Assembly: GCA_046563655.1 (NCBI GenBank)
Contig: CM102286.1
Location: 3,472,001 to 3,536,000 of the forward strand
Reading direction: 5' to 3'
DNA from: Yuukianura sp. NJ FZ-2021
Taxonomy: Eukaryota
DNA: 64,000 bases
Shown here: one piece after another, positions 3,510 to 41,623 of the stretch
How positions within the stretch are numbered: position 1 is the first letter of the stretch
Layout: every line of letters starts with the position of its first letter
Program-made: the position numbers and the translations under genes
Notes under the pieces: model-generated
The model's database searches: none
What the model was told of the DNA's origin: nothing
The model's input: only the letters and a program-made list of their open reading frames with translations

Positions 3510-4950
3510 TTTGAACTAAGAAATCAGAAAAACGCTAAATACAAGCCCAAATTTGCAAATTCAATTACACCGCATAAAAAGGACTAAATTGTAGGGTTAC
3601 AGCAGAAACAACGGAAAGGGATTAATCGTCACTGATCACAACTTTTATGAACAAGCATACAACCATACTACCCACGCTGCCGTCACCTCTATGCGTAAAG
3701 TGCGACTGACTTAAACGTGCGTCTAAACAATCAACAAGTAAACCTAATGACGTCAATGGTCTCATCCCCGGAAATGCAAATTTAGCTTTCACCTAGGTTG
3801 AGCGTAGGCGTCTCTTCGGTACTTGTATCGAAAAAATTTACAGAAACAAAGCCAATACATAGCACTATATTTGTTAAATAGAAGAACGAAATTTAAGTGT
3901 AATGTGATAAATTTAAGGTTCCAAAATGTCTAGAAGTAATTTCCAAAGTTATTTCTCATATTTAATGTCTTACAACCACAACCACTCCTTATCAATCTTA
4001 TAATTGGTACATTTAAAAACAACTCATTTGTATAACATAATTAACGAATTATAAAAGGAATTCCAGATTAACAGTACCTAGGTTTCCAATTTACAACATT
4101 ATGCTTGTATTCTCAGAAACTATTGGGGTACAATGATGTGTTAGCGACGAACTTCTGCTTGGTTTATTTTTGGGATACACCGTTTTAGTAAACCACGTCA
4201 GCACTAAAGTAGGTCTTTGACTCATCGTTAGATCAAGAAAATGCTCATCCTAAAAGCTTTTTTTTTTTTACTTTCGCTTACCTTGGCGAAAGTTTTTTTT
4301 TACCATTGAGACAAGCTCTGAATGAAACAGTACAAAAGAAAACCAAAACTTTATTAATGTTTTTGTTTTTACGTAAAGTTTGGACAGCAATTCTCCGCAA
4401 GGTTGAGTGGAACTTGGTAGAAAAACAATATTTTCAGGCTGATGAAGCATAACTTTTATTTACCGTTCCCGAAGTATATGCTGATTCCGTGTGTATACTG
4501 TTCAATTTTTGTTAAAAAGAATACAATATTAAAAAATAATACAGAAGGGATTTGATTTTGGCGTTTTGCCTAAAATTTAATCTTTTCAAAAAAAAACTGC
4601 GCCAGCCCATTGTTCATCCTTATTAGTAACACGGCACAAGTGTTATAAAAAAAAACAAGTTCTGTATTGTTGTGCGAAATACTACACTTTTTAAAGTGAT
4701 TGAATTCATTAAGGACGTGTGTTATGCGTCTAATAAACAATAATCGTTAAATTTAGTAACCACGATAACGGAGCTTGTGCAGTTAGTAAAACATGCAGAC
4801 ATCGACAAAAAGAAACACCCTTAAGTGAGTGGTGAAAAAGGATCAGTGGAAAGATGATCAAAAAAAGTATGCACTTTGAAACAAACAAACTACTGACACA
4901 AGTTCGGTTGCCGTCGTCTGGGTTTTAAAATAACTTTTCCGAGACAGTGA

Positions 4951-22520: not shown

Positions 22521-25354
22521 ATGTACTTACGGAGTCAGTTACCCTTGATTCGGTTACACCTCTTACAGTCAATCATAGTTGTTCCTTTTCTTTACCTGTT
22601 AATTCGTTATGCGGATACCCTCGTTTCGCTAACAGCACATTTTGATCGGAGAGACGACTACGCGACGCTATCTACTCAAAACCAAGACTCTTTTTTTGAT
22701 TACATAATTGGTAAGAAAGTGCTTACCATTTATTTATTCCAAAATGTTATAAAGGTCATTTCGATATGTTTTTGTTCAACGTAGTTGGGGCGGGTTCAGC
22801 TGGATCAATTGTTGCAAGTCGACTAGCAGAGAATGGTTCGATTAAAGTTCTATTGTTAGAAGCCGGCGGAAAACCAAGTCCAATGACACAAATGCCTACG
22901 GTTGCTTTCATGCTGAGCAATCGAGCGTCGCAAGACTGGAGGTATCGCACAGTTCCACAGAAGAATGCCTCCATGGGTCTCAACGGACAGGTTAGCCTTA
23001 AGTTAACCAAATAGCATCTTATGTGCAGTTATATTTCTGTGTATTACGATCACATTAATGATTCTTGTGACATAGGTTGTACATTGGCCCGGCGGAAAAG
23101 GTTTGGGTGGATCTTCTGTAATAAATGGTCTGATATTCATCCGTGGAAATATTCAGGGCTATGACTTAATGGCAAAAAGGACTGGAGACGCAATATGGAA
23201 ATCCGAAAATATTGTAAAATTTTATAAGAAAGTGGAAACATATAACGGCCTTTTTGATAAAGGTACATGACATAGAGTTGCAGTACGCACCATTACAAAC
23301 AGAAAACGTAACTACAAACACATATACAAATATATTTCTATGTCTACGTGTGCTAAGTTACATATGTGCTTGGTGGTGTGCAAGTATATATGCAACAGTA
23401 CTTTTATACATAAAGGTTTGTATACCGACGTACAGCTTACTATGTATATTTACATCTGTACATCGTATACTACACATTCATGCAGACCTTCGTACATACA
23501 ACTAGTACTATTTGCATATATTAGAAACGCATGTTATGCAAATGTGTATAATATACATAGCGTAGCATGTACATGTAGAAATATTGTGTAGTACGCTATA
23601 TTTAGAAACACAACTTTAACAATATAGCAAAATTAACAATATTTAACAAGTACCTAGTACTTAAATTTATCGTTTTTTGTAGATTTGCATGGTAAAAATG
23701 GAGATTTGACCATAGAAGCTCCAGCGGTTGTACCGCTAACTAAAATTTTGTTGGAAGCTGGAGAAGAGATGGGATACCCATCACGAGACCCTAATGCCAA
23801 AAATGTTCTCGAGGAAGGTAAAAATCTTTTTGAAATTACAAAAACTTTGAATGCCATAAAGCAAAGCACTGTTGTTGTCAAGGATTTGCCCAAATCGAGT
23901 CCTACACTAGGTTTGGTAGGCGGGCAGATACATACCACGCTACGTTAAGGAAAAATTTGCACAGAACAAATTTAGTTGTGCGAAAATTTTCTTTCGTAAC
24001 AAGGCTGCTATTTCGTCCTGGTGTAGAAAATGAAGTTATTGGCGTTGAATACGAACGGCATGGAAAAACTTACACTGCAACAGCTTCGAAACAAACAATT
24101 CTATGTGCCGGTAGTCTGTCGACGCCTAAAATTTTAATGTTGTCTGGAATAGGACCGAAGAAACATCTTGAGAAAATGCAGGTAAGTCCATTGAAGTTTT
24201 CTTCAGTAACCTTTCTTAGGTGTTCTTAAGTAAACTTTTAAAACGAGAAGGGAAGTTTTTAGTAGAAAGTATTATTCGCACATTTTCATTTCTTACATTG
24301 TATTTTCTTAGATACCAGTACGAGTAGATCTACCAGTAGGTCAAAGGTTACAAGATAAATACGGGGCCTTAGTAGGCCCGTTCGTCGTCCCCGAAGGCTA
24401 CTCCTTTAACTTTGAGCGTGACGTTAATATCTCAAGTATTTATGATTGGTTCTTACATGGGGGTGGTTTGCTCAACTCTGCCAGAACTGAAGCCACTTTT
24501 GCAGTGTTGAGTGAGACTGCAAAAAGAACGGGAGATACTTACGCACCGAATGTTCATAGCTACATCTTGTCTCAGACGCCTATCAGTCCAGAAACTCTCT
24601 TCGGATTAAATTTCAACTTTAACCAAGTCAGCTTAGACTACATGTCCAGATCAGTCCAATATGGCGACGGATTTTTTCAGCTCGTAACGATGAGCCGTTC
24701 TGTTGGGACAGGAACGCTACAACTTCGAGATAATAACCCACGTACTCCTGTGGAGATTGATCCAAAATACTTGCAAAATCAACAGGACTTGACAACATTG
24801 GTAGAAGGTAGACCATTTTCAATCAAAGCTGAATATAAAATAATTGCTAATTTTTTAAAACTTGTATTTTTGTACGCAGGGATAAGGTTCTCTGTGGACG
24901 TTGTTGAGAAAACAAAGGCTATGCAGGCTATTAATGCTCATTTGTTCCAAGATCCATTTCCTGGCTGCGAAAGTCATCAGTTCAAATCGGATGGTTACTA
25001 CGAATGTCTCGCACGACATACTACAATAAGTGCCTACAAATACTGCGGTACTGCTCCAATAGGGACAATCGATGACCCAGAAGCAGTTGTTGACTCAAGG
25101 TTTCGGTAATAAAGTTTTTATAATTCTTTCACTTATGCTTTGTTTGCGTTATTTAAAATTACTTATTGCTTTAGAACATTGCCCCAAACTTTTTAGTAAA
25201 TTTTACCTGTTCCACTTTCAGTGTTTTGGGTACGAAGGGTCTTCGAGTGATTGATGGATCGCTGTTGAGAATCAATGAAGTCAATACAAACGATGTAACA
25301 GTGCGCATGGTTGGAGAACTCGGAGCCTCCGTTGTTAAAATGGATTGGACGTGA
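22521..25354 (+). CDS. GMC oxidoreductase (glucose dehydrogenase-like), copy 2 (tandem duplicate)
   Basis: It has the same motifs and exon structure as copy 1, with high identity extending into upstream sequence (about 22240-22520 vs 18310-18565). Confidence 0.93.
23316..23612. repeat. About 290-bp TA/CA-rich insertion in intron 3 of GMC copy 2
   Basis: It is absent from the 75-nt paralogous intron of copy 1 and is bounded by the direct repeat AAACACA (23316-23322, 23606-23612). Confidence 0.6.
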
Positions 25355-26784: not shown

Positions 26785-29209
26785 TTAAAGATTTGCAAAC
26801 GAGGTCTTGAAATTTGTGCACTGAAGCCACCACAGGCGATTGTCTCTGGGATATTCAGGATCAGCGGCACTAGTAAACTACAAATTTAAAAATTAGACAA
26901 ATTATAAAGTTTAATCAGAATTCTACAATACAATGATAGTTGTAATTAACAAACCTTGTGTCCAGAAATGTGTAATTTCCAGTAACGTCCTTCCCGAAAG
27001 AAAAATGTGGTTCCATTTGATATCCCTAAAGTTGCGTCAATTCGGTCGTAAGGAATGCCTCTCCAATGAGTTCTAATGTCATGCCTCGTTGCAACTTTTT
27101 TGGAAAGATCATAGTCCCAGTACTCCGAACCTGTTAACAAAAAAACTTTTTGATGTTTTTATAACTGCATTTTAAGAAACTAAATTTTAGTTGAAGCACC
27201 TTTTATGAAAAAGATGGATTTCGAATCTTCTCCAAGGAATGCCGCATTAATGTTATCTGAATCGAAAAAAAAATTAAGTACTAATTCAGGTAGAAATAAA
27301 AAAAAAAGTTAGAACTGACCAGGGATTCCATTAAAATTTCTTCTGATGACTTTTGGATAGCCTTCGTCCACAACAAATCCACTCGTTCTCCAATACAAGG
27401 TTCCCTTGAGTTTTTTTTTTACAGTTTTAAACATTTTATTAGGTTTTTCAAAAATTTGCAAAGGCTACTGACCTTGAATAAGTATGTTTTGTGATTAAGT
27501 GTAAACGCTGCATCAATTGACGCCGGAATACGTCCGTTGTAAACATTTCGAATTCTCTGTATGTCCGTAGCGTGTACATATCCGCCATTCTGATTAAGGG
27601 TGATAAGCTCATCTCCTAAAATTTCAAAAAAGAAAAAAAAACAATCATTGCTTTTTTTTTCTAAATCACTTTTTAAGGTGTTGAAACTCATTTTCCAGCG
27701 CGTTGGGTAAAAAAAAACTTTTTCTTTTAAACTTTACCTCTAAAAATTAGAATTCTTCCATTCGATATGGAGGCAATTGCGTCGAACCTGCCATCTTGAC
27801 ATATCGCATGTCTCTGAAGAATATTTGTGGCATGCGTTGTTTTTTGTGTTGTGGATGACGACGTAGATGGTGCCACTGTGGTTGTCACTTCAATTGGCTT
27901 TGAACCATAGATTTGCTAAGAATGTAAACTCAATTGAACTTTGAAGCAATTTAAATTTAAAAATATTAAAAACGACAACACAAAATAGCTAAAAAGCAGA
28001 GTATTTTAAACCTGGACGCCTCTGATGTCATCTTCATTTAAACCGACTCCAAGCCTCACATCTTGTATCAAGTGCGAAAACATTATGGCCTGCTGACTTG
28101 ACGAATGACGGAGTCCAAGTGTATGTCCTATAAAAATAGTCATTTAAATAACCCGCCAGTCATTGAATATTTGACGCAAAAAAAAAGTTCAAGAAACTCC
28201 AATTTGAAGTAGTGTAGGTAGTGACTTGCTCTTTTGTTTTCTTTAACCAGAAAAACTGTAGTGTGGATTTAATTTCTTGCTTACTAACCAATTTCATGAA
28301 GGGCAGTATAAAACAGCATGTTTTGTGCTGTCCAGTCCACTTCCTCATTAAAGTGAATGTCCCCGGATAATCCAGAACCAGGCGGGTAAAAGGCATGTGC
28401 CAACTGAGAGCCTCCTGGCGGGAACGGAAAGTTGTCTCCGTGTGATCCATGTGTAAATTGAATGTCAATATCCGCCTGCTGTACTCATTTAAAGCATAGA
28501 AATTCATTTGAATCCTTCAAAATTTTGAATTTAAATGAATTTTGAATAACACATAAATTCAGGAAGTTTAAAAATTTTTAACTCTTACCACATACTCGTC
28601 GGCACTAATAGGAACAAATGTTAATGGAATGTGAACCTCCCATGATTGAAATGCCTTGCGGATTTCGGCGTCGGTAAAATTACGCGTGATTCTTTGTTGA
28701 CTGTAGCGCGAAATATGGTAACTAATGACATTTTTATCCCATTTGGTACCGTACAGTGTGTACTTTTCTGGACGGAGGTGTAGTTTTTGAAATTCAAGGG
28801 AATGGTGATGACGCAAAACTGTATCTTTGTTTGAACATCGCGGGAAATTTATGACTCGGAGTGTTTCTTTGTCCAAAACGCCTGTCTCATTTAGCCCCAT
28901 TCTCTCTTGCAAGTCTTTGATTGAGTCGCTAAAGTCTCTCAGCGACATGCGACTTGCATCGACGTTAAGGTCATCAAAGTAACCAAACGATGTCAAATAT
29001 TCCTACAAACAAGCACTTACAGTTATCATTAAAAAAACTAAAATGTAGTAAAATACTATTTTTTTATTTTGAAGCCTTACGAGTACGTCAGATTTTCGAG
29101 AATATTTCCGAGTTGCTTTTTGTAACCTTGCTTTTCTGATTGCTTGTGTCTGGATGACACAGAAAGTGAAAGTGAAAAACAGCAAAGAAATGAGTTTGAA
29201 GCGAGCCAT
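26785..29209 (-). CDS. Matrix metalloproteinase (signal, prodomain, catalytic, hinge, hemopexin)
   Basis: Signal MARFKLISLLFFTFTFCVIQTQA, cysteine switch PRCSNKD, LAHAFYP, GDIHFNEEVDW, zinc motif HEI|GHTLGLRHS and Met-turn AIMF are present. A Thr-rich hinge and hemopexin repeats (IDAAF, TYLFK, TFFFREGRYW) follow. Confidence 0.94.
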
Positions 29210-29699
29210 CTTTGGTAATAAACTTCAAAATTTTGTAAAATTAAGCCAAAAACTTTCAATTTGGAAGAAAGTGAAACATCTTCGCCACTTTTATACTTAG
29301 GATGAGTACCCAAACTTCCGATGATGACAAATTCGCGAGTTCATTGATTTTCATTCACGTCAGAGTAACAGTGACTAAACTAAAACCGTTACAACTTTCG
29401 CACTTGCAAAAAAAATTGCAAAGAATTGCGAGAACTGACACTACGCAAGAGCCTTTTTGTGATTCTTAAGTCAACAAACTTTTATGCACTAATCTTATCA
29501 AACAGTTATGGACATTGGAAACTGTAGCGATTTATTGAGGTCAAATTTCCAAGAAGCGATTGACCTCGACAGTCAGAGTGGTCAAAAGGCAAATTTGTTT
29601 AACCAAACTGTCGTTTTAGGTAGTTACACTTTTAGCTACAAATTAACTTGCTAAGCTAACATTCATATAATCCTTTGTCTTGACCATACCGTTACTAAG

Positions 29700-31297
29700 T
29701 CATAAAAATTTACGAATCCAACTGACATATTTTGGCACATTGGTGTACACTCCAGGTAAATTTGGACTTCCGCATCCAATTCCCCAAGAAACAAGACCAG
29801 CTAATACCCAGCGTCCATCGGATCTTTGACACACTAATCCCGATCCACCATCTTTTCTACAAGCATCTTTTCCAGCTTCTCCGCCGGCGCAAACAAACGC
29901 GTCTTGGTTAAGCCGAAATGAAGTTTTTCCTAAAAATGATTTTAGCAAACGATTTTCACACTCATTTCCATCCAGAACAGCAACATCGACATGTCGTAAT
30001 GCTAGAGATGGCTTGTCATTTTCTGTTATTCCATAGCCAGGTACCCAGCACCTAAAAATTGCAAAATTTTTAGTAAAATTTTTAAATTACGATATTACTT
30101 TTATAATATTTTGAGATGTTGACCTTTGCCCTGTTAAGGTCACTTCTGGACCTGGAAGACAAATGGAGTTGATGCTGGGACTCATGGACTTTTTCAGTTT
30201 ACATGTAGGATCCAGCTTGACAATGGCAATGTCATTTACCAAAGTTTGTTCATTAAAATCGGGATGCAAAATTATTCGATCAACTTTGACTTCTACAAAT
30301 GGATAAGGCTCTGTGGTAGAATCTGTATTGAGTTCGCCCACACGCACTTTTAGGTTCTTGCAACTTTAAAAAACAAAAAGTTTTTATAAAAATTGCATTG
30401 TTTGGAAGTCAGCAAAATCCTTACTTGGTGCAAGCAAAGTCTTGGACGCTATGTGCAGTAGTGACAACTGTGTAGTCATCCAGCAGAGACCCGCTGGCGA
30501 CAAATTTAAGTTTATCTTCCTGTAGAATCAAAGCGTTCCATGGATACTCTCCAAATTCTGCCTGGAAACGTAAATGACACAAAAATTCAAAAAAAGTTAA
30601 TACGAAAATGGCGGGAAAGATGTTTTTTACTTCTTTTTTTGGAAGACGCGGCAAAATGACATTTCGAGTTCCACAAACAAATTCCCGTTCCTCGGGAACT
30701 GGTGCTGGTTGTGGAGATGGAATTATGTTGTAACAGCAAACAGAGTCTACGCAAGTTGGAGTAGGCGGGGCAGGCTGTTTCGAAAAATTTGAAAACTATC
30801 ATTTTCAATTTTTAAAATTTGGAGAAAAAGTTTTAGTTATTTGCTTACATCGTTAATAATTTTTGACGAGTCTCTCCAGGTCTTAGGACTTTCATAATCC
30901 TTGTTCAGAATTACCCTTCTACTGGCAGCAATTTCGCGCGGACCAAAAACTCCCGGATCTGCGCATCTATCTTTCGGTACGCATGTGCACTCCGACTTTC
31001 CACTTTCAGGTTGAAGTATGGGAAATGGTTTGGTAATAATTTTGGCTAAATTTTAGAAAAGTACAATTGTTCAGTTCAGTTAACTTTAAGTGTTCAGTTG
31101 ATGCCAAAGTGAATTTAAATTGCCTTGTTGTGCAAGTTAGTCAATTAGTAAATTGGCACAAATTGACTAAATTTAGTTTATATAGAGAACTTACGAGGAG
31201 TCTGTTCAACTCCACCAGCTTCTTCGCCAAAGTCAATTGACTGCCCAAAATTGTAAGTAATGTTGAAACAGATTAACCATAGGACGATGTGCTTCAT
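29700..31297 (-). CDS. Clip-type serine protease homolog (PPAF/masquerade-like, non-catalytic)
   Basis: Signal MKHIVLWLICF, Cys-rich clip-like region, AEFGEYPW, TTAHSV, NDIAIV and LAGLVSWGIGCG are present. DACRKDGGSGL shows the catalytic Ser replaced by Gly. Confidence 0.9.
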
Positions 31298-31952
31298 TTT
31301 TTGAATAAAACAAGAACGAGCGTCAAAACGCATAAACTGCAGTAAATGTAAGTGAAGGCGAAGTGGACGCATTGAAAGCAAAATGCACTCCATTTTTATA
31401 GTAAACTCAAATTGTATTAATCAAGCTTATGGGAAAATAATTCATTGATTTTACCAAAATTCTATTAGTTTGTGGAAATGAAATCAGGAACAAAGGACCA
31501 ATGCAAATATTAGAGTGAGGATTTATCCAGATTCAGTACGGAAGAATAAGCCATCCTGCAACTACGATTTAACAAAGGTGAGAAGCTAGCACATACGTAC
31601 TACGTTGTACATTGTACACCAAAACAAAATTTTGTAAAACAGAATGAAAAGAACAATTCGATTTTTTACCGCCCAGTATTTATTTTTATATCAAAATGTC
31701 AAATGACACAATTCTACAAAAATACTGTTTCAGTTCTTCTGAAATTTGTTTAGTTGTTTTTGAGGTAGCATTTCGAAATTGTTAGCTTGGTTGATTAGTT
31801 TTGGTCTGATTAAATTTGAACTATTTTGTAGCTAAAGTTTGTGTTGAAGTTGGTTAACTCAAGTATAATTTTATATTTACGAAGCACATATTTCAAAATT
31901 TTGAACATGAAAACCATAACCTTTGTTAAAAATAAATATTTTTTGAACAAAT

Positions 31953-34611
31953 TTATCGAACAGCGTCATACCCACCCTTGAGACCATCTTTTGTTAAAAC
32001 AATTTGCCACAAGTTAAGTTTTCGTGCAAAAAAGGCTCCAGCTGAAGTGTCCAAATAGAACTTCCACATTCGATAAAATGTTGGACCATACTTGGCTTCC
32101 AATTTTGGCCAAGCTTCGTCAAACTTTTGACTCCAAGCGAGCAGTGTGTCTCCGTAGTAAGAACCAAAGTTGTGCCAGTCTTCAATAACAAACAGACTTT
32201 GCATGGCATTTGTAACGTCGCAGTAGTAAGGAATTTCTCCATTGGGAAAAATGTACTTCAGCGTCCATGGATCCTTCCGTTCCATCCGAGGATCATGAAC
32301 GCCAATTGTATGCAACAAAAATATGCCGTCTTCAATAAGGCAACGATTTGCGACTTCAAAATATTCGCGGTAGTTTTTGCTCCCAACGTGTTCAAACATT
32401 CCAACAGAAACGATTCTGTCAAATTTTTCATTCAGTGTTCGGTAATCTTGGACTCGAATGTCAACCGGCAGGCCTGCGCAGAAGTTTCGCGCATATTCGG
32501 CTCCCTCTTTGCCAATAGTTACTCCCACTACGGAGACTCCGTAATTTTTGGATAAGTGTTTAGCTAGGCCACCCCATCCACAGCCGATATCCAACACCTT
32601 CATGCCTGGTTCCAGTTTCAACTTTTTGGCAATCAGTTCCAGTTTGGCAGTTTGTGCTTCAGTTAAATTTGTAGCATTTTTCCAGTAGCCACAAGAGTAA
32701 CTCATGGACGGATCCAAGAAGGCTTCGAAGAGATCATTCCCTAAAACACGCAAAAAAAATATGAAAATTAAAAAAAAAATGGTCGAATTTTTCCATTTCA
32801 TGCTGTAAATTACTTCTAAGCAACCACAGAAATTCGTCTCACGGTAACTCGTTATGAAAATTACGCTTGAAAAATTTCTTTATTGACCAAGCACTTACCT
32901 GTGTCATAATGGCTGGATACTTCAAATGCTTTTCCCAGCGTCTGCATGTTGAATAGTCCATGCCTGAGGTAGCTAACGATGCTGTTTCGAAACGAAGTAG
33001 CTTCTTTGTACATTTCACTTTTTAGCATCAGATACATAAATTTTTCCAAAGATTTGCATTCCCATAGTCCTACAATTGAAAAAAGCAGGTTTACTAAGAG
33101 TCCGAATATAATTATGGACTTGAGACTCTGTATTAACAGCAGTGTTCTTCCAGCTACATCAAAATAGGTGGAAGTATCCACTTATCCATTTTATCCAGCC
33201 ATTTCTTCCAGATAAAACTGGATGAAATATATTATCCACTGGATATCCGCTGGACGAAATGTCAAAAAAGTGGATATACAGCATTCCTCCTTAACGGTAT
33301 TGTATTTACAAGAAAAAAATTGTACAAAAAATGGACTTTCTTGAACACATGAACCTAAGTTAAGCATACGTGTGATTCTAAAGTTAAATGCATGCCAATA
33401 TAAAGTTAATTTGTGATTTTTGTGAAGTTCTATTGCTGGTAATTTATGTGTGGAAAAGAAAAGTGGGGTGCTTTGCGTTTGGAAAAAGTCATGGGATCAA
33501 AACCTAGCCTAACCTTTCACCCTCTTTATGACTCAAACGTAGCATATTGCGGTTGTTTTTGGTTTTTTTTTTTGGCTAATATCAAAGTTGAGGTTTAATT
33601 TCAACTACTAATCGCAAACCGCAAAAACTTTCAATTGCTTTCAGTTTGGTGTATGTATAAAAACTAATCTTGTAATAGTTGAGCTTATCTGAACAATTTA
33701 GCGGCAAAGTCCTAATGATAAATTGAAACATTTTGAGTTAGGATTTAGGAATAGCATATTGGGTTTGCCAACGTGAATATTGGTAAATTTCCATTCTACT
33801 ATACCATATAACGTCAAGTTGCACAAACGCAAAAATTTACGCATTTCCGAACATTCAAACGGTAGACTCCAATTTCTATGCTCAAAAGCTTTCCTTCAGA
33901 GAGTTTTATTAGTCTTTGCGTGTCTCTGAATTGTCCAAGATGTCAAAGTGTCCAACATGACATAGTACTGTAATTTACTTCCAACCGTCCATTCATGACT
34001 CTTTGACGGAAAAATGTCTCAACGCACGAAACGATGTCATTAATCTAACTCTATCTCGGAGTGAAATAGCTTTAGAGAAAGAAAGTGTCCGGGAGTACAG
34101 AAATAAAAATGATTACGGAAAAAACCGAAATTTTGAACTGCTTTCATTTTGACGTTACGCATATTTTTTAGGAACAAAATAAAACCAAATTGCGCAATAA
34201 AGCGACTCCGAAATTATAGTTCCCTTGCTTCACAAATTTTTGTCAAAAGGAGAAAGTTCTGTTCAAAGTGAAAGTCTAAACACAAAGACCTTAATGAAAC
34301 AAATGCCCAGAACATTTTTCTTCAAACGCGCTTTACTTTTCATGTTTGACTTTACCCTCCATGTACATTTCTCCCAGTCCAAGTTCGAGATCACAGGCGA
34401 CACGAACAATCCATTCCTTTTCATGGCCAGCCTTGATTGTAATTCCCGCCGGACCGGTTCCGTCTAAATGAATTCCAGCTTGCCTGTATTTAGTTGTCAC
34501 AAGACTTTTGGCCAGTGGGAACAAAATGGTGGACAGAAGGAAGCGTTCCAAGGCCTTGTAGGCTCCCAAGGCCCCTTGAACCACTGTGTATAGGAAATGT
34601 GTCACTTCCAT
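31953..34611 (-). CDS. cfa: Cyclopropane-fatty-acyl-phospholipid synthase, bacterial Cfa type, 2 introns
   Basis: LGLGEMYMEG|LWEC, LFNMQT, HYDT|GNDLF..LDPSMSYSCGYW, VLDIGCGWGG, FDRIVSVGMFEHVG, FLLHTIG, DPWTLKYIFPNG and EDWHNFG match E. coli Cfa motifs as recalled. Confidence 0.95.
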
Positions 34612-36207
34612 TGTCTGTCCAGAAACGAAATGAATGACTGTCACTGTCAAGTCAATGTAGTCGTGTCATTCTAGTCCCTGTGGTTGGCAGTGGCTAGAGT
34701 CTGGTGGTTGTGGGTAAATGGTGAATAGTGTTATGGCTTCCCTCCCACTTCAAGCTTTCCTTTCCAACTGCTTTTCCTATTTAGTTTTTTTCCTTCGTCC
34801 GGCCTAAAATGTACTGCTGGAAGCCTCCTCAAAGTTGTTTGCAGCTTTTTCACGATTTCTGTGCAATTTCAGTCGGACTGAGAGGCAGAAGGAGAGGTTT
34901 GGCATAAAACATAAAAGCTTAAAGTGGTTTTCCTTATTCGAAAGATGCTTATATGGAAATGATTGTGTAGAACTGCCTGTGGCACTTATGGTTCTCCATG
35001 CACTGTAGAAACTGTGGAGTTATAATAAAAAAAAGATCCTATGGAAAAAGTGCTTAGTAAAGCAAAACTTAAGTTGATGCTGAAACCACCTTGCAGGTTT
35101 TTAGCATATGTTTTTTTTTCTGGTTAAGGTGATAAGTAGTTTTAAGAGCCCGTGCAGAGATGCATAAGTGATCAAAAATAAGCAACGACACGATACTGAT
35201 GTAAGTTTTGTGCAAACATTTACTAAAAATCTGGAGCATGAAGTGTACTGCATGGAGACGCCATAAACACTTTGTTTGCTTGCGTGACCTCCACCTCAAA
35301 GCTAAATGAGGTCACAAAAACAAGCGTATGGAGACGGTAGAACCAGATCTGTGAAGTGGTGGAGCTTATAGGTGAGAGTTTTTTTTTTTCAGGCAAAAAC
35401 TCGTTAGCACCGCGTGATCAAATTCTGAAATGAAACTTTAATGACAGGACAAAAATTGTAGTCTAGCGGTGACAATGGTATGGGCATTAGACGTGGATAT
35501 TTTTGAAACTAAGGTTAACAGGAAATGACTAAAATGGCTTAACGGTAAATTAAGTGTAGTGTCAGGATGGCACTTAATTAGTCACAGTCATGTGGAATAC
35601 ACAGGTATGAAAAATTCGTTGTGTGCTTCTAAAGTGTTTTTCAGTTCAGCAGACTTGGACTGTGACTAATGCAAGGACAAAAAGCATCATCCATTGTCTA
35701 AACTTCACTCTTTGAATGTCTTTTACATTATAAGTATTTTATAATTAAAATTTTTATTTAAAACAATTTGTAGCTAAATTTTGTTAAAATTTGTGTGACA
35801 AATTAAAATTTTCAAACACTAAAAATTATCAATTGAAAAATACAGTGCAAATTGTGTGTTTTCCCGAAAAAAAAATTGTAGGTTTTTTGTATCATAATTT
35901 TTTTGAATTTGTATAAAACTTGTTTTGAAAAGTAGCAAATTCAACAATTTCTGAGAATTGGAAAATAAAGAGCGTATTAATGAAGCGTATGGAAAGTTTT
36001 GATACAATAATAAATCTAATCTGATATCATTTGTTTGTTTTTAGATGTAGAATTTTTACGTCAGCCGTACTGCGCAAAATTATCTGGAAATTTTTCAAAA
36101 AATTGATGAAAGTTTTTGTTTATATAAAATTTGTTTGACACCGATTTTGTCAGTGGTATACGGATTTTGTCTAATTTGAAGAATTTCTTTTAAATCTTCG
36201 TCTCATA

Positions 36208-36831
36208 ATGAATCTAAAACTTTTTGTTGTAGTTTTTGTCACGTTGGGCACAATTTCTGCTGCTCATGCTCGTTCAGTCTTTCTAGCTTTCTCTGCAAGG
36301 TATTAAAGAAATTTTAACTCCACTTTAAAAAAAGTATTGACTCCTAAATTTTATTTTCAGAAATCTGCCTTCAATGGACATTGCCAATGGGGCTCCAGAT
36401 GCATACGTAATTGTGTTCTACCGAGTAAGTGAATCTTCTCCATATGAAAATCGTGGAGAAACAGACAATATTTCGGATAACCGAAATCCTGATTGGCCAG
36501 AAGTTTTTGAAATTTTCGACAATGGAAATCCAAACCAGGTCTGTCTACCCGTAAAACCTTTCATGAATTTTCACAAATTAACGTTGCATTACAACCAAAT
36601 ATGCCACAACAAAATTGTAATTTTCCAAATACATGGTTTGTTATTATATTTGTTTTTCAGCGAATGAAATTTGAAATGTGGGACTCCGACTCTCCGGATC
36701 CAGATGATTATATGGGCTTTGTGGAACTATTTCTGCAAGAAATTACTGAAGATGCTGACGGTGTAGTAACAAAGAACTTAACTCATGGACAGCCAGGCGG
36801 TGGTCAATTAATTATTAAGAGGCAGTTATAA
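36208..36831 (+). CDS. Small secreted single C2-domain protein
   Basis: Three exons (36208-36299, 36361-36538, 36661-36831) give signal MNLKLFVVVFVTLGTISAAHA. The C2 motifs follow: SARNLPSMD..PDAYV, NPDWPEVF, MKFEMWDSD..DDYMG. Confidence 0.85.
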
Positions 36832-37708
36832 ATTACTAAAATTTGCTAATCTAAAACTAAACTAAAACTAATATTGCCGTCTGTATTGAATTATCCTTCT
36901 TTTGTTCACATCAGTGGAAAGTGACTAATTAATTCTTCATCTGAATTTAAACTTACTAAAGCAAAGCAAAAAAACTAACCTCAAAGCTTTCGCAACACGA
37001 AATGTGAAGGTCAAGGTTTAATAATTAAGTATTAAATTATGCTACGTTTTTTGAGTTGATTCAAATTAGGCTCATGCAAGATCTAACATTTTATAATAAA
37101 TTCACAAAAAAATTGATTTATAAGCATGAAAATTTTTTGCGCATAAATTATAACTATTAAATTCTCTATGGATTTACAAGTACAACTACATCAAAAACCC
37201 GTTTTTTTTTTCTAAAAATCAACTCGTAAGTAACAATTTTTTGAACAAAAAAAATATATTCAAGGTTGAATTCAAGGTAAATTTGTTTTAGACACGTTAA
37301 AACTGAATTTTTGTGTTACAAGTATGTCCAGTTCAGTTGGATATTTCACCGTGTAATCAGTTGATAAAACACATCTTGCAAGTAATAACTTTCTGAAAGT
37401 TGACTATAGGTGTAACTCAAGTACTTGCCAAATTTTGTATTTGTTCAAGGTCAAACGGATTATGGTAAAAGCGATTTCAGTTCTTTTAACAGACATCATC
37501 AAGAAATAAAGAATCTGTTGTCTTTTACGTATCGACTTGAAGGAATCCGAACAGTTCCTACTTGCGTTGCTCGAAATTTCTAAGCTAATTCTCTTCTAAA
37601 ACAAAAAGGAAACAACTTCAAACGCTAATGTTTGTACTGAATAATATTAAAATCTCGTAACTCAATCAGAAATGTTAACTTGGATATAATTTTGTTGTTT
37701 TTTAGAAA

Positions 37709-39444
37709 ATGCTTGCACAAAATCCTCTGGACGCTTTGGTAGTTGGAGCCGGATTTGCAGGAGTACATACGCTTTGGAAATTAAGAAAACTTGGATTTTC
37801 AGTCAAAATTTATGAAAGTGCAAGTGACCTTGGGGGAACTTGGTTTTGGAACAGGTATCCTGGTGCTCGAGTAGACAGTGAAACGCCTGTTTATCAACTG
37901 AGTGAAGAAAAAGAAGGCTGGATTGATTTTGAATGGACACAACGTTTTCCTGGACGCGATGAAATACAACGTTATTTTCACCATTTGGATAAAAAATTGG
38001 ATCTGAGCAAAGACATTGTCTACAACACTGAGGTCACTGAAGCTGCGTTTGATGATTCTTTAAACCTATGGCTCGTCAAAACAAGTACGGGTTTGTCAAC
38101 ATGGGCTCGACATTTGGTCCTTTGTGTTGGGGCTTTAGGAAAACGGTAATATTTCAATAACAAAAAAAAGTATGCTATTTTAATAAAAAAAGTTAATCTA
38201 ATAACAAAAATGCATTATGTTTTTTGCTCAGACACACCCCACCTTTCCCTGGACTGGAAAAGTATAAAGGAAAGTGGTATCATTCTGCATTTTGGCCAGA
38301 AGAAGACGTTGATTTGAAAGGGAAAAAAGTCGCTGTAGTTGGAACAGGAGCCAGCGGTGTTCAAATAGTCCAAGAAATTGGACCAATCGTGGGTCACCTT
38401 ACAGTGTACCAGCGAACCCCAAATCTTGCTCTGCCAATGCGCCAGCGTTTTCTCAAGGATAAAAATCAAAATACTGACAGCATTGCTACCCAGCGTTGGA
38501 AATTTCCAAAGAAAGAGGAATATGAAAACATTTTTCGACATTTGAGAGAAAGTTTTGGCGCTGTTTTGGTCAACATGGATTTTACTGCAAAGGTTTTTGA
38601 AGAGACGCCACCCGAGGAACGGCAACAATTCTATGAGTATTTGTGGGAATATGGCGGATTTGCAATTTGGGTGGGAGGTTTCAAGGAAGTTTTCTTTTCA
38701 CAAAAAGCCAATGACGAAGTCTATGACTTTTGGGCTAAAAAAGTTCGCGCTCGAATTACCGATCCGAAAAAGCGGGACTTGCTGGCACCTTTGACTCCGC
38801 CGCATGCTTTTGGCACTAAACGGCCATCTTTGGAACAAGCTTATTACGAAGTTTACAACCAACCTAATGTAGACTTAATTGATGTCAATGATTCTCCAAT
38901 TGTGGAAATTACTGAACAAGGAATCAAAACGGCCAAAGAAGGTGTAGTTCCTGTAGATGTCATAGCTTTTGCAACTGGATTTGATGCCATAACTGGAGGA
39001 ATTTTGAACATCAAAATCACCAATGGAAAAGGAGCATCACTTGAAGACAAGTGGAAATCACGTCTGGCGGCGTATTTGGGCGTGAGTACTGCTGGGTTTC
39101 CGAATTTGTATTTCTGTTTTGGACCGCAAGCTCCAACAGCATTTGCAAATGGACCAACCTGTGTCGAACTTCAAAGCGACTGGATTGCCGATCTCTTGGT
39201 GAACATGAGAACTGGCGGTAAAGTTAGGATCGAAGCGCTGAAATCTGCTGAAGATCAATGGGTCACTGATGTGAATGACCTTTGGAAAACAAGTTTGTGT
39301 CCTGGAACGAATTCGTGGTACCAGGGAGCCAATATTCCTGGAAAAACAAGGGAGCCCTTAAACTACCTCTGTGGAATTCCAGCTTACATTGAGCATTTGG
39401 AGAAATCTAAGATTAGCAATTACGAAGGTTTTGAATTGTCGTAG
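37709..39444 (+). CDS. Type I Baeyer-Villiger monooxygenase (FAD/NADPH), one intron at about 38146-38230
   Basis: DALVVGAGFAG, GGTWFWNRYPGARVDS, fingerprint YKGKWYHSAFWP (FxGxxxHxxxWP), VAVVGTGASGVQ, QRTPN, FGTKRP, ATGFD and SWYQGANIPGK are all present. Confidence 0.95.
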
Positions 39445-39727
39445 GGCTGGACTGCTTTTTGGACAGCATTACGTGGTTTACTCTTGACCTTGCTTTAAAC
39501 TTACTAAAACGAGTTAAAAAAAATAAATTCAAAAGTTGCTCAACCAGAATTGTGAAGGTCAAGATTTAATAATTTAGCGTTGAATTATTTCATGTTTCCT
39601 GAGTTGACTGGAATTTGGCAAAACGTAAGATTTCATGATGAATTCAAAAAACAAACAACAAAATTTAATGAAGCAGGAAAAAATTTCGCGTAAAAATAAT
39701 TACTAATAAATTCATTTATAATTATAG

Positions 39728-40304
39728 TAGATTTGATTGATGTCAATGACTCCCCAATTGTGGAAATTACAGAACATGGAGTCAAAACGCACAAAGAAGG
39801 CGTGATTCCCGTGGATGTTCTCATTTTGGCAACTGGATTTGACGGTTTGACCGGAGGAATCTTGAACATCAAGATTACCAATGGCAAGGGCTTGTCACTT
39901 CAAGACAAATGGAAATCAGGCACTACCTGTTTTCCGGGTTTGAGTATCGCTTTCCCAAATTTGTATTTTCTCTATGCACAACAAGCCCCGACATGTTTTG
40001 CCAATGCAATGGACCCAATTGTATTGAAATTCAAAGCAACTGGATTTGTGATCTTCTGGTCAGCATGAGATCTAACGGGAAATTTCGAGTTGAAGCTTTG
40101 AAAACTGCTGAAGATGAGTGGGTCAAATTAGTTCGTGAAAATGGGAACAAAATGTTGTGTCCTGCAACTAAATCTTGGTACTGTGGCGCCAACATTCCCG
40201 GGAAAACCAGGGAAGCATTGAACTTTTTCGGTGGCCTTCCAGCTTATGATGAGCATTTGGAGAAATCCAGCAACAACCACTACGAGGGATTCGAGCTGTC
40301 ATGA
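39728..40304 (+). pseudogene. Truncated, frameshifted duplicate of the BVMO gene (3' third only)
   Basis: It starts abruptly at VDLIDVNDSPIVEITE. A 5-nt tandem duplication CAATG CAATG (40002-40011) shifts the frame. It ends YEGFELS* like the intact copy. Confidence 0.9.
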
Positions 40305-41623
40305 AATTTGAAAACGCTAAGTGTTTCATGCCCATTTTTATGTTGATATGACATTTTATCTCTAGTATTTAAGTTTCATCCAAGTGTTTTTAAATTAAGA
40401 TTCAGAAATAAAAAAAATTTTGCTTCCGGTGAAAAAAAAAAAAAAATTTTTTTTGAATAAAATTCAAATTTTGAATCCAAAATCTTAATTTAGAGGTGTT
40501 AATATGAGTTATCTGTCAAACTTTCGTTCGTTGATTTTCAACTTGTTGTTCTTTCTTTTGACTTTGCACATTTCAAGCCAATTCCCATTTCCGAATCGGA
40601 AAATCCGATATCTCTCTGTATGTTTTTAATAAGTTATGTAATAATAATGTTAATAAGTATATGTTTAATAAGTTAATTCCCCATTCTTCTCCAACACAAC
40701 TTTGCATCGTGTTCATAGTCACTATTGTGGTAAAAATTTGAAAAAATGCTTCGAAAGAAAAGGCGCTTTATTCAAAACGTATTTCTATGCTTTTATACTT
40801 TATTTACTGTTTTCGTTCTCGTCAACTTTTTCTGTCTTGCAGGTATGTCCAAAGCTCGGCGAATTTTGGAACTTTGTTCTGTGATTCACTCATCTGCTCA
40901 TTTTCTTACGTTGAATTCGAAGAAATAATGTTCTTAATTAAACTAGTGTTACGAATAAGCAATAATAGTTAATTACCAAGGAATGATTGCTTTAATTAAT
41001 GATTAAACCATAAACATAAACAACCATATAACCTCAGCAAGGCGGAAATCAGAATGAGGGTTTTAGTTTTCTAGTGTGATGGACCCTCGCCGAAAGTATT
41101 TATGATCCTACAAACGTAATATAAATTGCCGAACTCTGCATGCATTTAATACACGCACGTAGGCAAAACCAAACCTTGTTTTGTTTTGTCAAAACTGCGG
41201 ATCGTCCGAAGATAACGTTATTTAGTTAATGGTGTGGTAAGAAGTTATAATTAATTTACCTCAAGAACAATGCAAAAGGAAGAGTGTAATTAATTGTGCA
41301 ATCGAAATGGATAGACATCAGATTAGAATCGAAGGTAAATTGAATTGAATAGAAAATTAGAATCTCTGTCTCGTAGCTTAACAGCGTTGTAAGATCAACT
41401 TGAGTTAAATTACGATTCAATTCAATCGTTTTAAGATTTAAACGTCATTTTAATCTGGCAGATGTCCAAGTATTGGGGACGGGAACCGCTTCCCATAATC
41501 ACTAAACTAGTAATTGAGCTCATTCTCATGTATTTTCTTCAAGAATAGGCTGTCACTGCTAACTTCTAGTCACCACATAACAAGAAGAAATACGGGGGGT
41601 TGATCTCTCTCTAAGCATTCGAG

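What the first reader, a model, noticed from the sequence alone, without database searches (positions are those of the whole stretch)
31953..34611. Bacterial-type cyclopropane fatty acid synthase domesticated with spliceosomal introns
Seen: a full-length Cfa with two GT-AG introns (one about 1.3 kb) between plainly animal genes, which argues against contamination. Established knowledge: Cfa cyclopropanates membrane phospholipids in bacteria for acid and stress tolerance, and animals generally lack it. The motifs closely follow the proteobacterial enzyme as recalled. The extra N-terminal hydrophobic extension (MEVTHFLYTVVQGALGAYKALERFLLSTILFPLAK) may be an acquired membrane-targeting segment. 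Inference: horizontal acquisition giving an animal its own cyclopropane lipids, which matters because cy17:0 and cy19:0 are used as bacterial biomarkers in soil food webs.
Basis: partly seen in the sequence, partly recalled or inferred. Interest (0 to 1): 0.7.

Follow-up and report, generated by a model that had tools for sequence, protein, structure and literature searches.

The report
Bacterial-type cyclopropane lipid synthase in a springtail
A springtail genome carries an expressed, intron-containing gene for the enzyme bacteria use to put cyclopropane rings into membrane fatty acids; it belongs to a family shared with other springtails, mites and an ostracod, which could explain springtail cyclopropane lipids and complicate the use of such lipids as "bacterial" markers.

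Summary
On the minus strand at 31953-34611 lies a 3-exon, 404-aa gene with two GT-AG introns of 1286 and 158 nt. It encodes a full-length E. coli-type cyclopropane fatty acyl phospholipid synthase (Cfa). It passes the NCBIfam equivalog cut-off and matches PDB 6BQC at E 9e-93. The SAM motif and all five bicarbonate-site residues are kept.

Contigs of one public run skip both introns exactly. A contig from a second study links the gene to its animal neighbours. The host is a springtail.

The gene is not a private, recent acquisition. It sits in a well-supported clade that holds no bacterial genome sequence. That clade includes several Folsomia paralogs, Orchesella, the mite Dinothrombium, an ostracod and a protist transcript. 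Most of its full-length members examined share an N-terminal helical extension, and members of several subclades share one intron position.

Bacterial origin is the best reading, but the donor and the time of transfer are unresolved. Two Orchesella Cfa genes were already listed as horizontal transfers in a 2016 supplement, so this is a new member of a known kind.

The untested link to springtail cyclopropane cuticular hydrocarbons (sarekensane) and to the cy17:0/cy19:0 "bacterial" biomarkers gives it moderate interest.

The parts
34356..34611 (-). Exon 1 (ATG at 34611; codons 1-85 plus the first base of codon 86): N-terminal helical extension and the start of the Cfa N-domain
   Evidence: gene model. 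P0001 residues 1-85 align to 34611-34354 at 70% identity. There is no in-frame ATG between the upstream stop and 34611.
34522..34611 (-). About 30 codons of N-terminal extension that are absent from typical bacterial Cfa
   Evidence: The window protein and the 16 other eukaryote-clade proteins in which the I-x-I-N-G motif was found have 30-62 residues before it (42-51 in 15 of the 17). The 7 plain bacterial proteins in which it was found have 3-18. The maximum Kyte-Doolittle 19-residue mean in the window protein is 1.31, against 2.3-2.9 in bacterial TM-anchored forms. The AlphaFold2 model of ortholog P0001 has a helix at 2-28 with block pLDDT 74-93.
33070..34355 (-). Intron 1, 1286 nt, GT-AG, phase 1, GC 0.34
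   Evidence: An X1 contig joint 33068->34355 skips 1286 nt with CT..AC ends on the + strand, but its longest flank is only 28 nt. X2 and X3 contigs contain the intron DNA.
33145..33283 (.). Repetitive element inside intron 1
   Evidence: summed contig depth is 2000-4000 in X2/X3 against about 200 in the flanks, with many loose ends at 33145, 33183, 33243 and 33283. There is no second copy in the window.
32899..33069 (-). Exon 2 (171 nt), the rest of the N-domain
   Evidence: P0001 residues 85-145 align to 33070-32888 at 85% identity.
32741..32898 (-). Intron 2, 158 nt, GT-AG, phase 1 inside the Gly codon of the G-N-D-L-F motif. The same position recurs in relatives.
   Evidence: An X1 contig joint skips 158 nt at depth 188 with longest flank 173. 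L083 has a GT-AG intron at the same position and phase. All 12 relatives' ORF fragments that run upstream of the motif lose homology at this Gly.
31953..32740 (-). Exon 3 (788 nt including the stop at 31953-31955): the whole SAM-dependent catalytic (CMAS) domain
   Evidence: Pfam CMAS 6.9e-80. PDB 6bqc 9.3e-93. NCBIfam NF008686 421.4 bits against a cut-off of 400.
34612..34676 (-). 5' UTR as far as a spliced-run contig reaches
   Evidence: X1 record 3 covers 34355-34676.
31788..31952 (-). 3' UTR as far as a spliced-run contig reaches
   Evidence: X1 record 2 covers 31788-32739 and then jumps over intron 2.

Best explanation
This is a functional, expressed nuclear gene of a springtail. It encodes an E. 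coli-type cyclopropane fatty acyl phospholipid synthase.

Shown:
- The gene is intact, has three exons and is spliced at canonical sites.
- It is linked to native arthropod genes.
- It is under strong purifying selection.
- It keeps the two-domain Cfa architecture, the SAM-binding motif and every bicarbonate-site residue.

Inferred mechanism: the enzyme takes the methyl group of S-adenosylmethionine and adds it as a methylene across a cis double bond of an unsaturated acyl chain in a phospholipid, giving a cyclopropane fatty acid. The extra N-terminal amphipathic helix, about 30 residues long, holds the enzyme on an internal membrane (ER or lipid droplet).

Inferred evolution: the gene descends from a bacterial cfa that entered a eukaryotic lineage long ago. 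After entry it gained an intron in the G-N-D-L-F Gly codon and the N-terminal extension. It then diversified into a multigene family now found in springtails, trombidiform mites and an ostracod. The window copy gained a second intron.

Speculative: its products are endogenous cyclopropane lipids, possibly precursors of springtail cyclopropane cuticular hydrocarbons.
For: Gene model and splice sites.

Spliced contigs in X1 at both introns, and at five introns of neighbouring genes; X1 has zero depth in the intergenic stretch 30170-31471.

Linkage in a second study: X5 record 23 (5959 nt) covers 28000-33179, which spans matrixin, trypsin and Cfa exons 3 and 2.

Family assignment:
- Pfam CMAS 6.9e-80.
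- 6bqc 9.3e-93, with Cys, Glu, His, Ile and Tyr of the bicarbonate site aligned and identical.
- NF008686 equivalog at 421 bits for exon 3 alone and 511 bits for ortholog P0001 over profile positions 18-382 of 383. Other CMAS subfamilies fall far below their cut-offs.

Selection against L081: pN 0.11, pS 0.81 (saturated).

Composition: CDS GC 0.44 and GC3 0.44, against 0.39-0.44 and 0.23-0.43 for neighbouring exons.

Clade:
- 41 of 343 rows at support 99, with none of the 78 GTDB genome-locus ORFs in the tree inside it.
- A 46 versus 43 split at 100.
- A 28-row clade at 99.
- Names.

Shared intron.

Shared extension.

Nearest bacterial genomes are only 53-60% identical and come from many phyla.

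O. cincta Cfa genes Ocin01_07379 and Ocin01_09578 appear in the HGT gene set of PMC4987106 (supplement; main-text passages).
Against: - No run on record as RNA holds the gene. X1 is labelled 'DNA?' (a guess by the tool), and its RNA nature is inferred from its behaviour.
- The intron-1 joint has only 28 letters on its shorter side, and reads were laid at 90% likeness.
- No enzyme assay or lipid data exist for this species.
- The trees are unrooted 'quick' or FastTree analyses with many unnamed rows. The bacterial sister group is unresolved, and one long-branch row (P0231) changed sides between trees.
- The clade's spread over Hexapoda, Chelicerata and Crustacea plus a protist transcript fits an older or more complex history than one transfer into springtails.
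- Field practice treats cy17:0 and cy19:0 as prokaryote-only (PMC5696395, introduction passage). That would be surprising if springtails made much of them in storage lipids.
Confidence: 0.75

Rival explanations
1. Old vertical inheritance. The gene was already present in the arthropod ancestor, or in an earlier eukaryote, and has been lost from most lineages, including almost all insects. On this reading it is not a transfer into springtails.
For: The clade holds no bacterial genome locus and includes Collembola, an acariform mite, an ostracod and an MMETSP transcript. Members of several subclades share one intron position and most full-length members examined share the N-terminal extension. 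Other eukaryote-looking Cfa groups exist, for example one with the holozoan Syssomonas.
Against: Inside the clade the branching does not follow species relationships: the mite sequences sit in a polytomy with springtail paralogs. The Syssomonas group is not sister to the clade. Named animal hits were confined to these few taxa in two searches that each listed the 120 best of 8000 scored candidates, so lower-ranking animal hits would not have been seen. The clade is only slightly more distant from bacteria (53-60% identity) than its own subclades are from each other.
Confidence: 0.15
2. Transfer among arthropods. One eukaryotic lineage domesticated a bacterial cfa, and the intron-bearing gene then moved between soil arthropods (mites, springtails, ostracods), for example through predation on eggs.
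For: A shared intron and extension combined with a patchy distribution. Dinothrombium sequences nest among springtail paralogs. Trombidid mites eat springtails and their eggs (PMC6275457, background passages). Microbial-type terpene synthases show a similar Collembola plus Acariformes distribution, and transfer within arthropods has been proposed for them (PMC11665903, abstract and discussion passages).
Against: Support inside the clade is weak, with many forks under 80. Most rows are unnamed. The mite contigs could hold prey DNA (P0010 lies on a 3092-nt contig). Ancient paralogy with differential loss gives the same picture.
Confidence: 0.2
3. Changed chemistry. The protein is a CMAS-fold methyltransferase that no longer makes cyclopropane phospholipids. 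It instead makes methyl-branched or methylene lipids, or acts on another lipid class.
For: The CMAS family includes enzymes with other outcomes; mycolic acid methyltransferases and plant N-methyltransferases appear among the PDB hits. The family has expanded to at least 4 copies in Folsomia and 7 genes with this GO term in O. cincta, which invites divergence. Sarekensane carries a methyl branch as well as its rings (PMC10825826 abstract).
Against: All five bicarbonate-site residues and the SAM motif are identical to those of E. coli Cfa. The equivalog model for true Cfa is passed, while the Brucella-type, CfaB and mycolic models score far below their cut-offs.
Confidence: 0.15
4. Bacterial contamination or an assembly chimera.
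For: Nothing beyond the high similarity to bacterial Cfa.
Against: The gene has two spliceosomal introns with AT-rich sequence, and contigs skip exactly these introns. It has host-like composition. A contig from a separate study and organism label spans it together with matrixin and trypsin genes. Orthologs exist in other springtail genomes.
Confidence: 0.01

Closest known systems
E. coli cyclopropane fatty acyl phospholipid synthase (Cfa; PDB 6BQC; NCBIfam NF008686; Pfam PF02353 CMAS)
   Same: The catalytic domain aligns end to end at E 9.3e-93. The SAM motif and the bicarbonate-site Cys, Glu, His, Ile and Tyr are identical. The two-domain layout is kept. The equivalog cut-off is passed.
   Different: The springtail gene is eukaryotic and nuclear, with two introns. 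It has about 30 extra N-terminal residues predicted as a long amphipathic helix. Its activity is untested.
Annotated springtail Cfa genes: Folsomia candida XP_035707367/8 and further paralogs; Orchesella cincta ODM99302.1; O. cincta genes Ocin01_07379 and Ocin01_09578, listed among HGT genes in PMC4987106
   Same: They fall in the same eukaryote-only clade with the same N-terminal extension. The Orchesella-cluster genomic ORF P0030 loses homology at the window's intron-2 position. The published HGT call is in a supplement table.
   Different: The window gene is only 61-66% identical to them over exon 3. It falls in its own 6-row subclade with unnamed sequences P0001-P0005. It is therefore a different paralog or comes from a distant springtail lineage.
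Cfa-like proteins of the velvet mite Dinothrombium tinctorium and the ostracod Cyprideis torosa
   Same: Same clade. The mite proteins carry the same kind of N-terminal extension.
   Different: They come from other arthropod subphyla. The ostracod sequence is on a long branch. Nothing about them was found in the main text of the mite genome paper, which has 0 occurrences of 'cyclopropane'.
CFA synthase acquired by Formica/Iberoformica ants from Enterobacteria (PMC13320244, passages read)
   Same: A bacterial cfa fixed and expressed in an animal genome.
   Different: It is an independent and apparently younger event. It is about 75% identical to bacterial references and has an enterobacterial donor. 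The springtail clade is 53-60% identical to any bacterial genome and has no identifiable donor.
Other eukaryotic CMAS-family enzymes (Leishmania CFAS, Sterculia cyclopropane synthase, Coprinopsis cfs1); seen only as titles in the reference list of PMC13320244, otherwise recalled
   Same: They are SAM-dependent lipid methylene or methyl transferases of bacterial type found in eukaryotes.
   Different: They were not compared by sequence here. As recalled, the plant enzyme is fused to an oxidase domain.

Membership tests
E. coli-type Cfa (NCBIfam NF008686 equivalog) | Score above the curated whole-protein cut-off of 400 bits | tested here: met
   Exon 3 alone scores 421.4 bits. Ortholog P0001 scores 510.7 bits over profile positions 18-382 of 383. 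The spliced window protein itself was not submitted.
E. coli-type Cfa | CMAS catalytic domain with the SAM-binding glycine-rich motif | tested here: met
   Pfam PF02353 at 6.9e-80, covering profile positions 18-273 of 273. The motif V-L-D-I-G-C-G-W-G-G is identical to that of 6bqc in the alignment.
E. coli-type Cfa | Bicarbonate-site residues (C139, E239, H266, I268, Y317 in E. coli numbering; the numbering and the roles are recalled, not taken from a call) | tested here: met
   In the alignment, chain positions 140, 240, 267, 269 and 318 of 6bqc_A (offset +1) are matched by identical residues in the window protein.
E. coli-type Cfa | N-terminal lipid-binding domain preceding the catalytic domain | tested here: met
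   Window exons 1 and 2 are colinear with P0001 residues 1-145. P0001 aligns to the NF008686 profile from position 18. The AlphaFold2 model of P0001 has mean pLDDT 88 and pTM 0.87. Pfam has no model for this part, and exons 1 and 2 gave 0 hits.
E. coli-type Cfa | Catalyses cyclopropanation of phospholipid acyl chains | not testable with these tools
   This needs an enzyme assay or complementation of an E. coli cfa mutant.
Other CMAS subfamilies (Brucella-type CFA synthase NF053839, CfaB NF040703, mycolic acid methyltransferases NF040660) | Score above the respective curated cut-off | tested here: not met
   Scores are 236 against 600, 185 against 650 and 156 against 390 bits for exon 3. They are 275, 199 and 169 bits for P0001.
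Horizontally acquired gene fixed in an animal genome | Physical linkage to native genes, independent of the assembly in hand | tested here: met
   An X5 contig of 5959 nt (other study, other organism code) spans 28000-33179, with 218 differing letters and 95 gaps. The neighbours carry animal Pfam domains, and the copine exon is closest to Collembola.
Horizontally acquired gene fixed in an animal genome | Spliceosomal introns removed in transcripts | tested here: met
   X1 contigs skip 158 nt and 1286 nt exactly at the GT-AG sites. Caveats: X1 is not on record as RNA, and the second joint has a 28-letter flank.
Horizontally acquired gene fixed in an animal genome | Phylogeny places it among non-animal sequences, and it is absent from most animals | tested here: inconclusive
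   The clade lies in an unresolved polytomy with bacterial groups. Named animal relatives come only from Collembola, one mite and one ostracod. However, the clade itself holds no bacterial genome locus, there is no rooted tree, the donor is unknown, and most rows are unnamed.

The most novel reading that the evidence does not exclude
The springtail Cfa family is the missing enzyme behind arthropod cyclopropane lipids. On this reading springtails make their own cyclopropane fatty acids, which are elongated and decarbonylated into cuticular cyclopropane hydrocarbons such as sarekensane of Vertagopus sarekensis. If so, cy17:0 and cy19:0 in springtail and mite tissue are not purely dietary 'absolute bacterial' markers. 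The family, marked by one shared intron and an added membrane helix, would have spread among soil and sediment arthropods after a single domestication of a bacterial gene.
Probability: 0.25. Interest if true: 0.7.

Novelty: new member of a known kind. Interest (0 to 1): 0.5.

Why it matters
1. Soil food-web studies treat cy17:0 and cy19:0 as fatty acids 'only synthesized by prokaryotes' (PMC5696395, introduction passage). An intact, expressed Cfa family in springtails and mites makes that assumption testable.

2. Cyclopropane cuticular hydrocarbons were described from a springtail in 2023. The paper names no enzyme: 'synthase' and 'genome' each occur 0 times in its text (PMC10825826). This gene family is an obvious candidate.

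3. A shared intron and a shared added N-terminal helix across springtail, mite and ostracod genes give a clean marker. It can help separate one old domestication from repeated transfers among arthropods.

Tried and rejected
- Whole-genome search of the window's own assembly: no genome is held.
- Earlier notes of this scan: nothing by place, sequence or words.
- RNA evidence: no RNA holder is listed among the 5 runs found. Splicing evidence rests on run X1, whose kind is only guessed.
Among the three best loci, the only ones examined, it returned one close relative (L081) and one intron-bearing relative (L083); the rest of the 80 kept loci were not examined.
- Donor search: the best 80 GTDB loci are 53-60% identical and spread over Gammaproteobacteria, Bacteroidota, Chlamydiota, Patescibacteria, Kryptoniota and others. 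No bacterial group is a supported sister.
- Bacterial Cfa forms with their own N-terminal transmembrane anchor (P0318, P0334, P0313, P0320, P0382) were considered as the source of the extension. They group inside the bacterial side and not next to the eukaryote clade, and their anchors are far more hydrophobic.
- FastTree joined the clade to 43 representative-library rows, some of them eukaryote-like. With a site-heterogeneous model these rows fell apart into separate groups, so this is not evidence for one large eukaryotic family.
- Literature searches: 'cyclopropane fatty acid synthase' + springtail gave 0 papers. 'cyclopropane' + 'horizontal gene transfer' + Collembola gave 1 irrelevant paper. 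The enzyme name + Folsomia gave 1 irrelevant paper. The two supplementary files held as text for the Folsomia genome paper contain no 'cyclopropane'. File 1 of the O. cincta supplement could not be searched.
- Second copy of the gene or of the intron-1 repeat in the window: none.
Full report
**1. What is in the sequence**

The minus strand between 31953 and 34611 carries a three-exon gene.
- Exon 1 is 34611-34356, exon 2 is 33069-32899 and exon 3 is 32740-31953 (stop included).
- Together they give a 1215-nt reading frame and a 404-aa protein.
- Intron 1 is 1286 nt and intron 2 is 158 nt. Both begin with GT, end with AG and interrupt a codon after its first base.
- The introns are AT-rich (GC 0.34 and 0.30), while the coding sequence has GC 0.44.
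- The ATG at 34611 is the first in its open frame.
- tblastn with the closest relative finds only these three exons in the 64-kb window, so there is one copy here.

**2. What the protein is**

- Exon 3 alone (261 aa) matches Pfam CMAS at 6.9e-80 over profile positions 18-273 of 273.
- It matches the solved E. coli cyclopropane fatty acyl phospholipid synthase (6bqc) at 9.3e-93 over chain residues 125-378.
- It exceeds the curated cut-off of the NCBIfam equivalog model for this enzyme, 421 against 400 bits.
- It stays far below the cut-offs of the Brucella-type, CfaB and mycolic acid subfamilies.
- In the alignment the glycine-rich SAM motif is identical to that of the E. coli enzyme.
- The five residues that I recall as forming the bicarbonate site (C139, E239, H266, I268, Y317 in E. 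coli numbering, not taken from a call) correspond to chain positions 140, 240, 267, 269 and 318. All five are identical in the window protein.
- Exons 1 and 2 have no Pfam hit. They are colinear with residues 1-145 of the full-length relative P0001.
- P0001 aligns to the equivalog profile from position 18 to 382 of 383, so the N-terminal lipid-binding domain is present as well.

**3. It is a real, expressed animal gene**

The flanking open frames carry copine, arrestin (twice), GMC oxidoreductase (a tandem pair), matrixin with its pro-domain, trypsin, AKAP-17A-like, class V aminotransferase and Cdc25-type rhodanese domains.

The 11 best named relatives of the copine exon all come from springtails (Orchesella dallaii, Folsomia candida, Allacma fusca, O. 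cincta), at 45-58% identity. The host is therefore a collembolan that is not close to any annotated one.

Five public runs hold the stretch. Four were laid on 28000-41000.
- Run X1 is labelled only 'DNA?', a guess by the tool. It has no cover over the intergenic stretch 30170-31471.
- X1 holds contigs that skip exactly 158 nt (32739->32898, depth 188, 173 letters on the shorter side) and 1286 nt (33068->34355, depth 155, but only 28 letters on the shorter side).
- X1 also has five further GT-AG or CT-AC joints in the neighbouring matrixin gene and in a plus-strand gene near 36.3-36.7 kb.
- Runs X2 and X3 of the same sample contain the intron DNA.
- X1 therefore behaves like a transcriptome, and both predicted junctions are used.
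- X1 contigs extend the transcript to 34676 and to 31788.

Run X5 comes from another study and another organism code. It has one 5959-nt contig covering 28000-33179, with 218 differing letters and 95 gaps. That stretch holds matrixin, trypsin, Cfa exon 3, intron 2 and exon 2 on a single piece.

Compared with its nearest relative (L081, 74% nucleotide identity over exon 3), synonymous sites are saturated (pS 0.81) while pN is 0.11. This shows strong purifying selection.

**4. Relatives**

The word-indexed search scored 8000 candidates and listed the best 120.
- Five unnamed sequences are 72-82% identical.
- Next come Folsomia candida 'cyclopropane-fatty-acyl-phospholipid synthase' at 66% and two Dinothrombium tinctorium proteins at 63%.
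- After these come bacterial proteins at 57-64%.

Cluster look-ups added Orchesella cincta (ODM99302.1), O. dallaii, the ostracod Cyprideis torosa and an MMETSP transcript. A profile of 15 clade members found three more Folsomia paralogs and no other named animal among the 120 listed.

In GTDB species genomes the best 80 loci are 53-60% identical. They come from Gammaproteobacteria (many Lysobacterales), Bacteroidota, Chlamydiota, Patescibacteria, Kryptoniota, Nitrospirota and a few archaeal bins.

**5. Trees**

- FastTree on 343 rows (window, 264 database proteins of at least 240 aa, 78 genome-locus ORFs) puts the window in a 41-row clade with support 99. The clade contains every named eukaryote and none of the 78 genome loci.
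- IQ-TREE (LG+C20, short search) on 89 rows gives a branch of length 0.3 with SH-aLRT 100. It separates 43 bacterial rows from 46 clade rows. One long-branch row, P0231, moved to the bacterial side.
- A third tree of 80 rows added more distant representative sequences. It keeps a 28-row clade at 99. A second eukaryote-looking group that includes the holozoan Syssomonas lies elsewhere and is not its sister.
- The clade hangs in a polytomy with bacterial groups, so no donor can be named. All trees are unrooted and most rows are unnamed.
- Inside the clade the window sits with P0001-P0005 (98-99). The mite sequences lie in a polytomy with springtail paralogs. The ostracod and the MMETSP sequence lie on long basal branches.

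**6. Two shared derived characters**

First character: the intron. L083 is a 5252-nt metagenome contig (GC 0.38) from a different subclade. It has a GT-AG intron in the same phase inside the same Gly codon of the G-N-D-L-F motif as window intron 2, and no intron at the position of window intron 1.

Of the 54 clade proteins inspected:
- 12 are ORF fragments, called on contigs that mostly exceed the ORF by 1 kb or more, that run upstream of this motif. All 12 lose homology exactly at that Gly.
- 12 other fragments start at an internal Met and say nothing.
- The full-length ones, which are transcript-sized or annotated, read straight through.
- The 12 informative fragments come from at least six subclades, including the Orchesella cluster.

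Second character: the N-terminal extension.
- Where the conserved I-x-I-N-G motif could be located, the window protein and 16 other eukaryote-clade proteins have 30-62 residues before it (42-51 in 15 of the 17).
- The 7 plain bacterial proteins in which it was found have 3-18 residues before it.
- The extension is moderately hydrophobic and interrupted by Lys and Glu. The maximum 19-residue hydropathy is 1.31 in the window protein, against 2.3-2.9 in those bacterial Cfa forms that have a true transmembrane anchor.
- AlphaFold2 models it in P0001 as a helix spanning residues 2-28, with block pLDDT 74-93 in a model of mean pLDDT 88.
But the segment was acquired at the base of the family and not in this gene.

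**7. Interpretation**

The best-supported account has four steps.
- A bacterial cfa entered a eukaryotic lineage long ago.
- There it acquired an intron and an amphipathic N-terminal helix.
- It then diversified.
- Springtails now hold several paralogs: at least 4 in Folsomia and 7 genes with the Cfa GO term in O. cincta.

The present data cannot say whether the first recipient was a springtail ancestor, an older arthropod or another eukaryote. They also cannot say whether mites and ostracods got the gene by descent or by transfer among arthropods. A similar Collembola plus Acariformes distribution, with proposed intra-arthropod transfer, is in print for microbial-type terpene synthases (PMC11665903, passages). 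Trombidid mites eat springtails and their eggs (PMC6275457, passages).

The mechanism is inferred from conservation. SAM-dependent methylene transfer to a cis double bond of a phospholipid acyl chain, with bicarbonate in the active site, is established for E. coli Cfa (recalled).

**8. What is already known**

- Folsomia and Orchesella proteins carry the Cfa name in NCBI.
- In the O. cincta genome paper (PMC4987106) the main text describes 253 HGT genes. It names 'actinobacterium-like cell wall biogenesis' among the top enriched terms (passages). The supplementary table lists two Cfa genes under that term and under GO:0008825. The word 'cyclopropane' does not appear to be in that main text (one search did not return the paper).
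- The two supplementary files held as text for the Folsomia genome paper have no 'cyclopropane'. The trombidid mite paper's main text has none either.
- A separate, younger transfer of a CFA synthase from Enterobacteria into Formica and Iberoformica ants was published in 2026 (PMC13320244, passages).
- The gene class in springtails is thus known at annotation and supplement level. I found nothing on its introns, its N-terminal helix, its wider clade or its products.

**9. Why it may still matter**

Sarekensane is a long-chain hydrocarbon with two cyclopropane rings and is the main cuticular lipid of the springtail Vertagopus sarekensis. Its describers call it fatty-acid-derived and unprecedented in arthropods. 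They note SAM-dependent ring formation in general terms and name no enzyme or gene (PMC10825826, abstract and passages; PMC11321324, passages).

Soil ecologists list cy17:0 and cy19:0 among markers 'only synthesized by prokaryotes' (PMC5696395, introduction passage).

An intact, expressed Cfa family in springtails bears on both points. Neither link is shown here.

**10. Verdict**

This is a new member of a known kind, of moderate interest.

Noticed in passing
window 37706-39444 (+), with a second partial copy at 39700-40304 (+): A type I Baeyer-Villiger monooxygenase lies 3 kb from the Cfa start on the other strand. Its best PDB matches are named Baeyer-Villiger monooxygenase (6jdk at 6e-123, 6y48) and 'dimethylaniline monooxygenase, putative' (5j7x), followed by phenylacetone, steroid and cyclohexanone monooxygenases; that these are microbial enzymes is recalled. 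Animal FMOs match only at about 1e-5. It is probably a second gene of non-animal origin next to Cfa. A flavin monooxygenase with a Mycobacterium best hit also appears in the O. cincta HGT table.
   Followed up: partly
window 18811-20753 and 23834-25109 (+): A tandem pair of GMC oxidoreductase genes whose exon translations are very similar.
   Followed up: no
window 33145-33283 and 40152-40585: Two short stretches with 10- to 20-fold excess contig depth and many loose ends in the DNA runs. These are dispersed repeats, and one of them lies inside Cfa intron 1. There is no second copy of intron 1 sequence in the window.
   Followed up: partly
L083:1047-2684: A metagenome contig (GC 0.38) holds a two-exon Cfa of the P0123/P0059 subclade. 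Its GT-AG intron is at the same Gly codon as window intron 2, and it has its own N-terminal extension. The organism is unknown.
   Followed up: yes
proteins P0202, P0232, P0192, P0248, P0199: A separate group of Cfa homologs, three of which (P0202, P0232, P0192) show N-terminal hydrophobic segments in the sequence heads printed, includes a protein of the holozoan protist Syssomonas multiformis. It is not sister to the springtail clade, which suggests further independent eukaryotic acquisitions.
   Followed up: partly
protein P0221 with locus L033: A 488-aa Cfa with a long low-complexity N-terminus, seen on many Logan/ENA contigs, pairs with an Enterobacteriaceae (Plesiomonas) sequence at support 95. 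It might be the ant CFA synthase described in PMC13320244, but this was not checked.
   Followed up: no
proteins P0318, P0334, P0313, P0320, P0382: Some Cfa proteins that group on the bacterial side of the tree (unnamed, on contigs up to about 270 kb) carry a true N-terminal transmembrane anchor, with hydropathy 2.3-2.9. They form their own clade.
   Followed up: partly
window 46273-46858: A GC-rich (0.45-0.49), Pro/Gly-rich low-complexity stretch is open in several frames on both strands. It lies at the start of a very long plus-strand ORF, 46453-49158.
   Followed up: no
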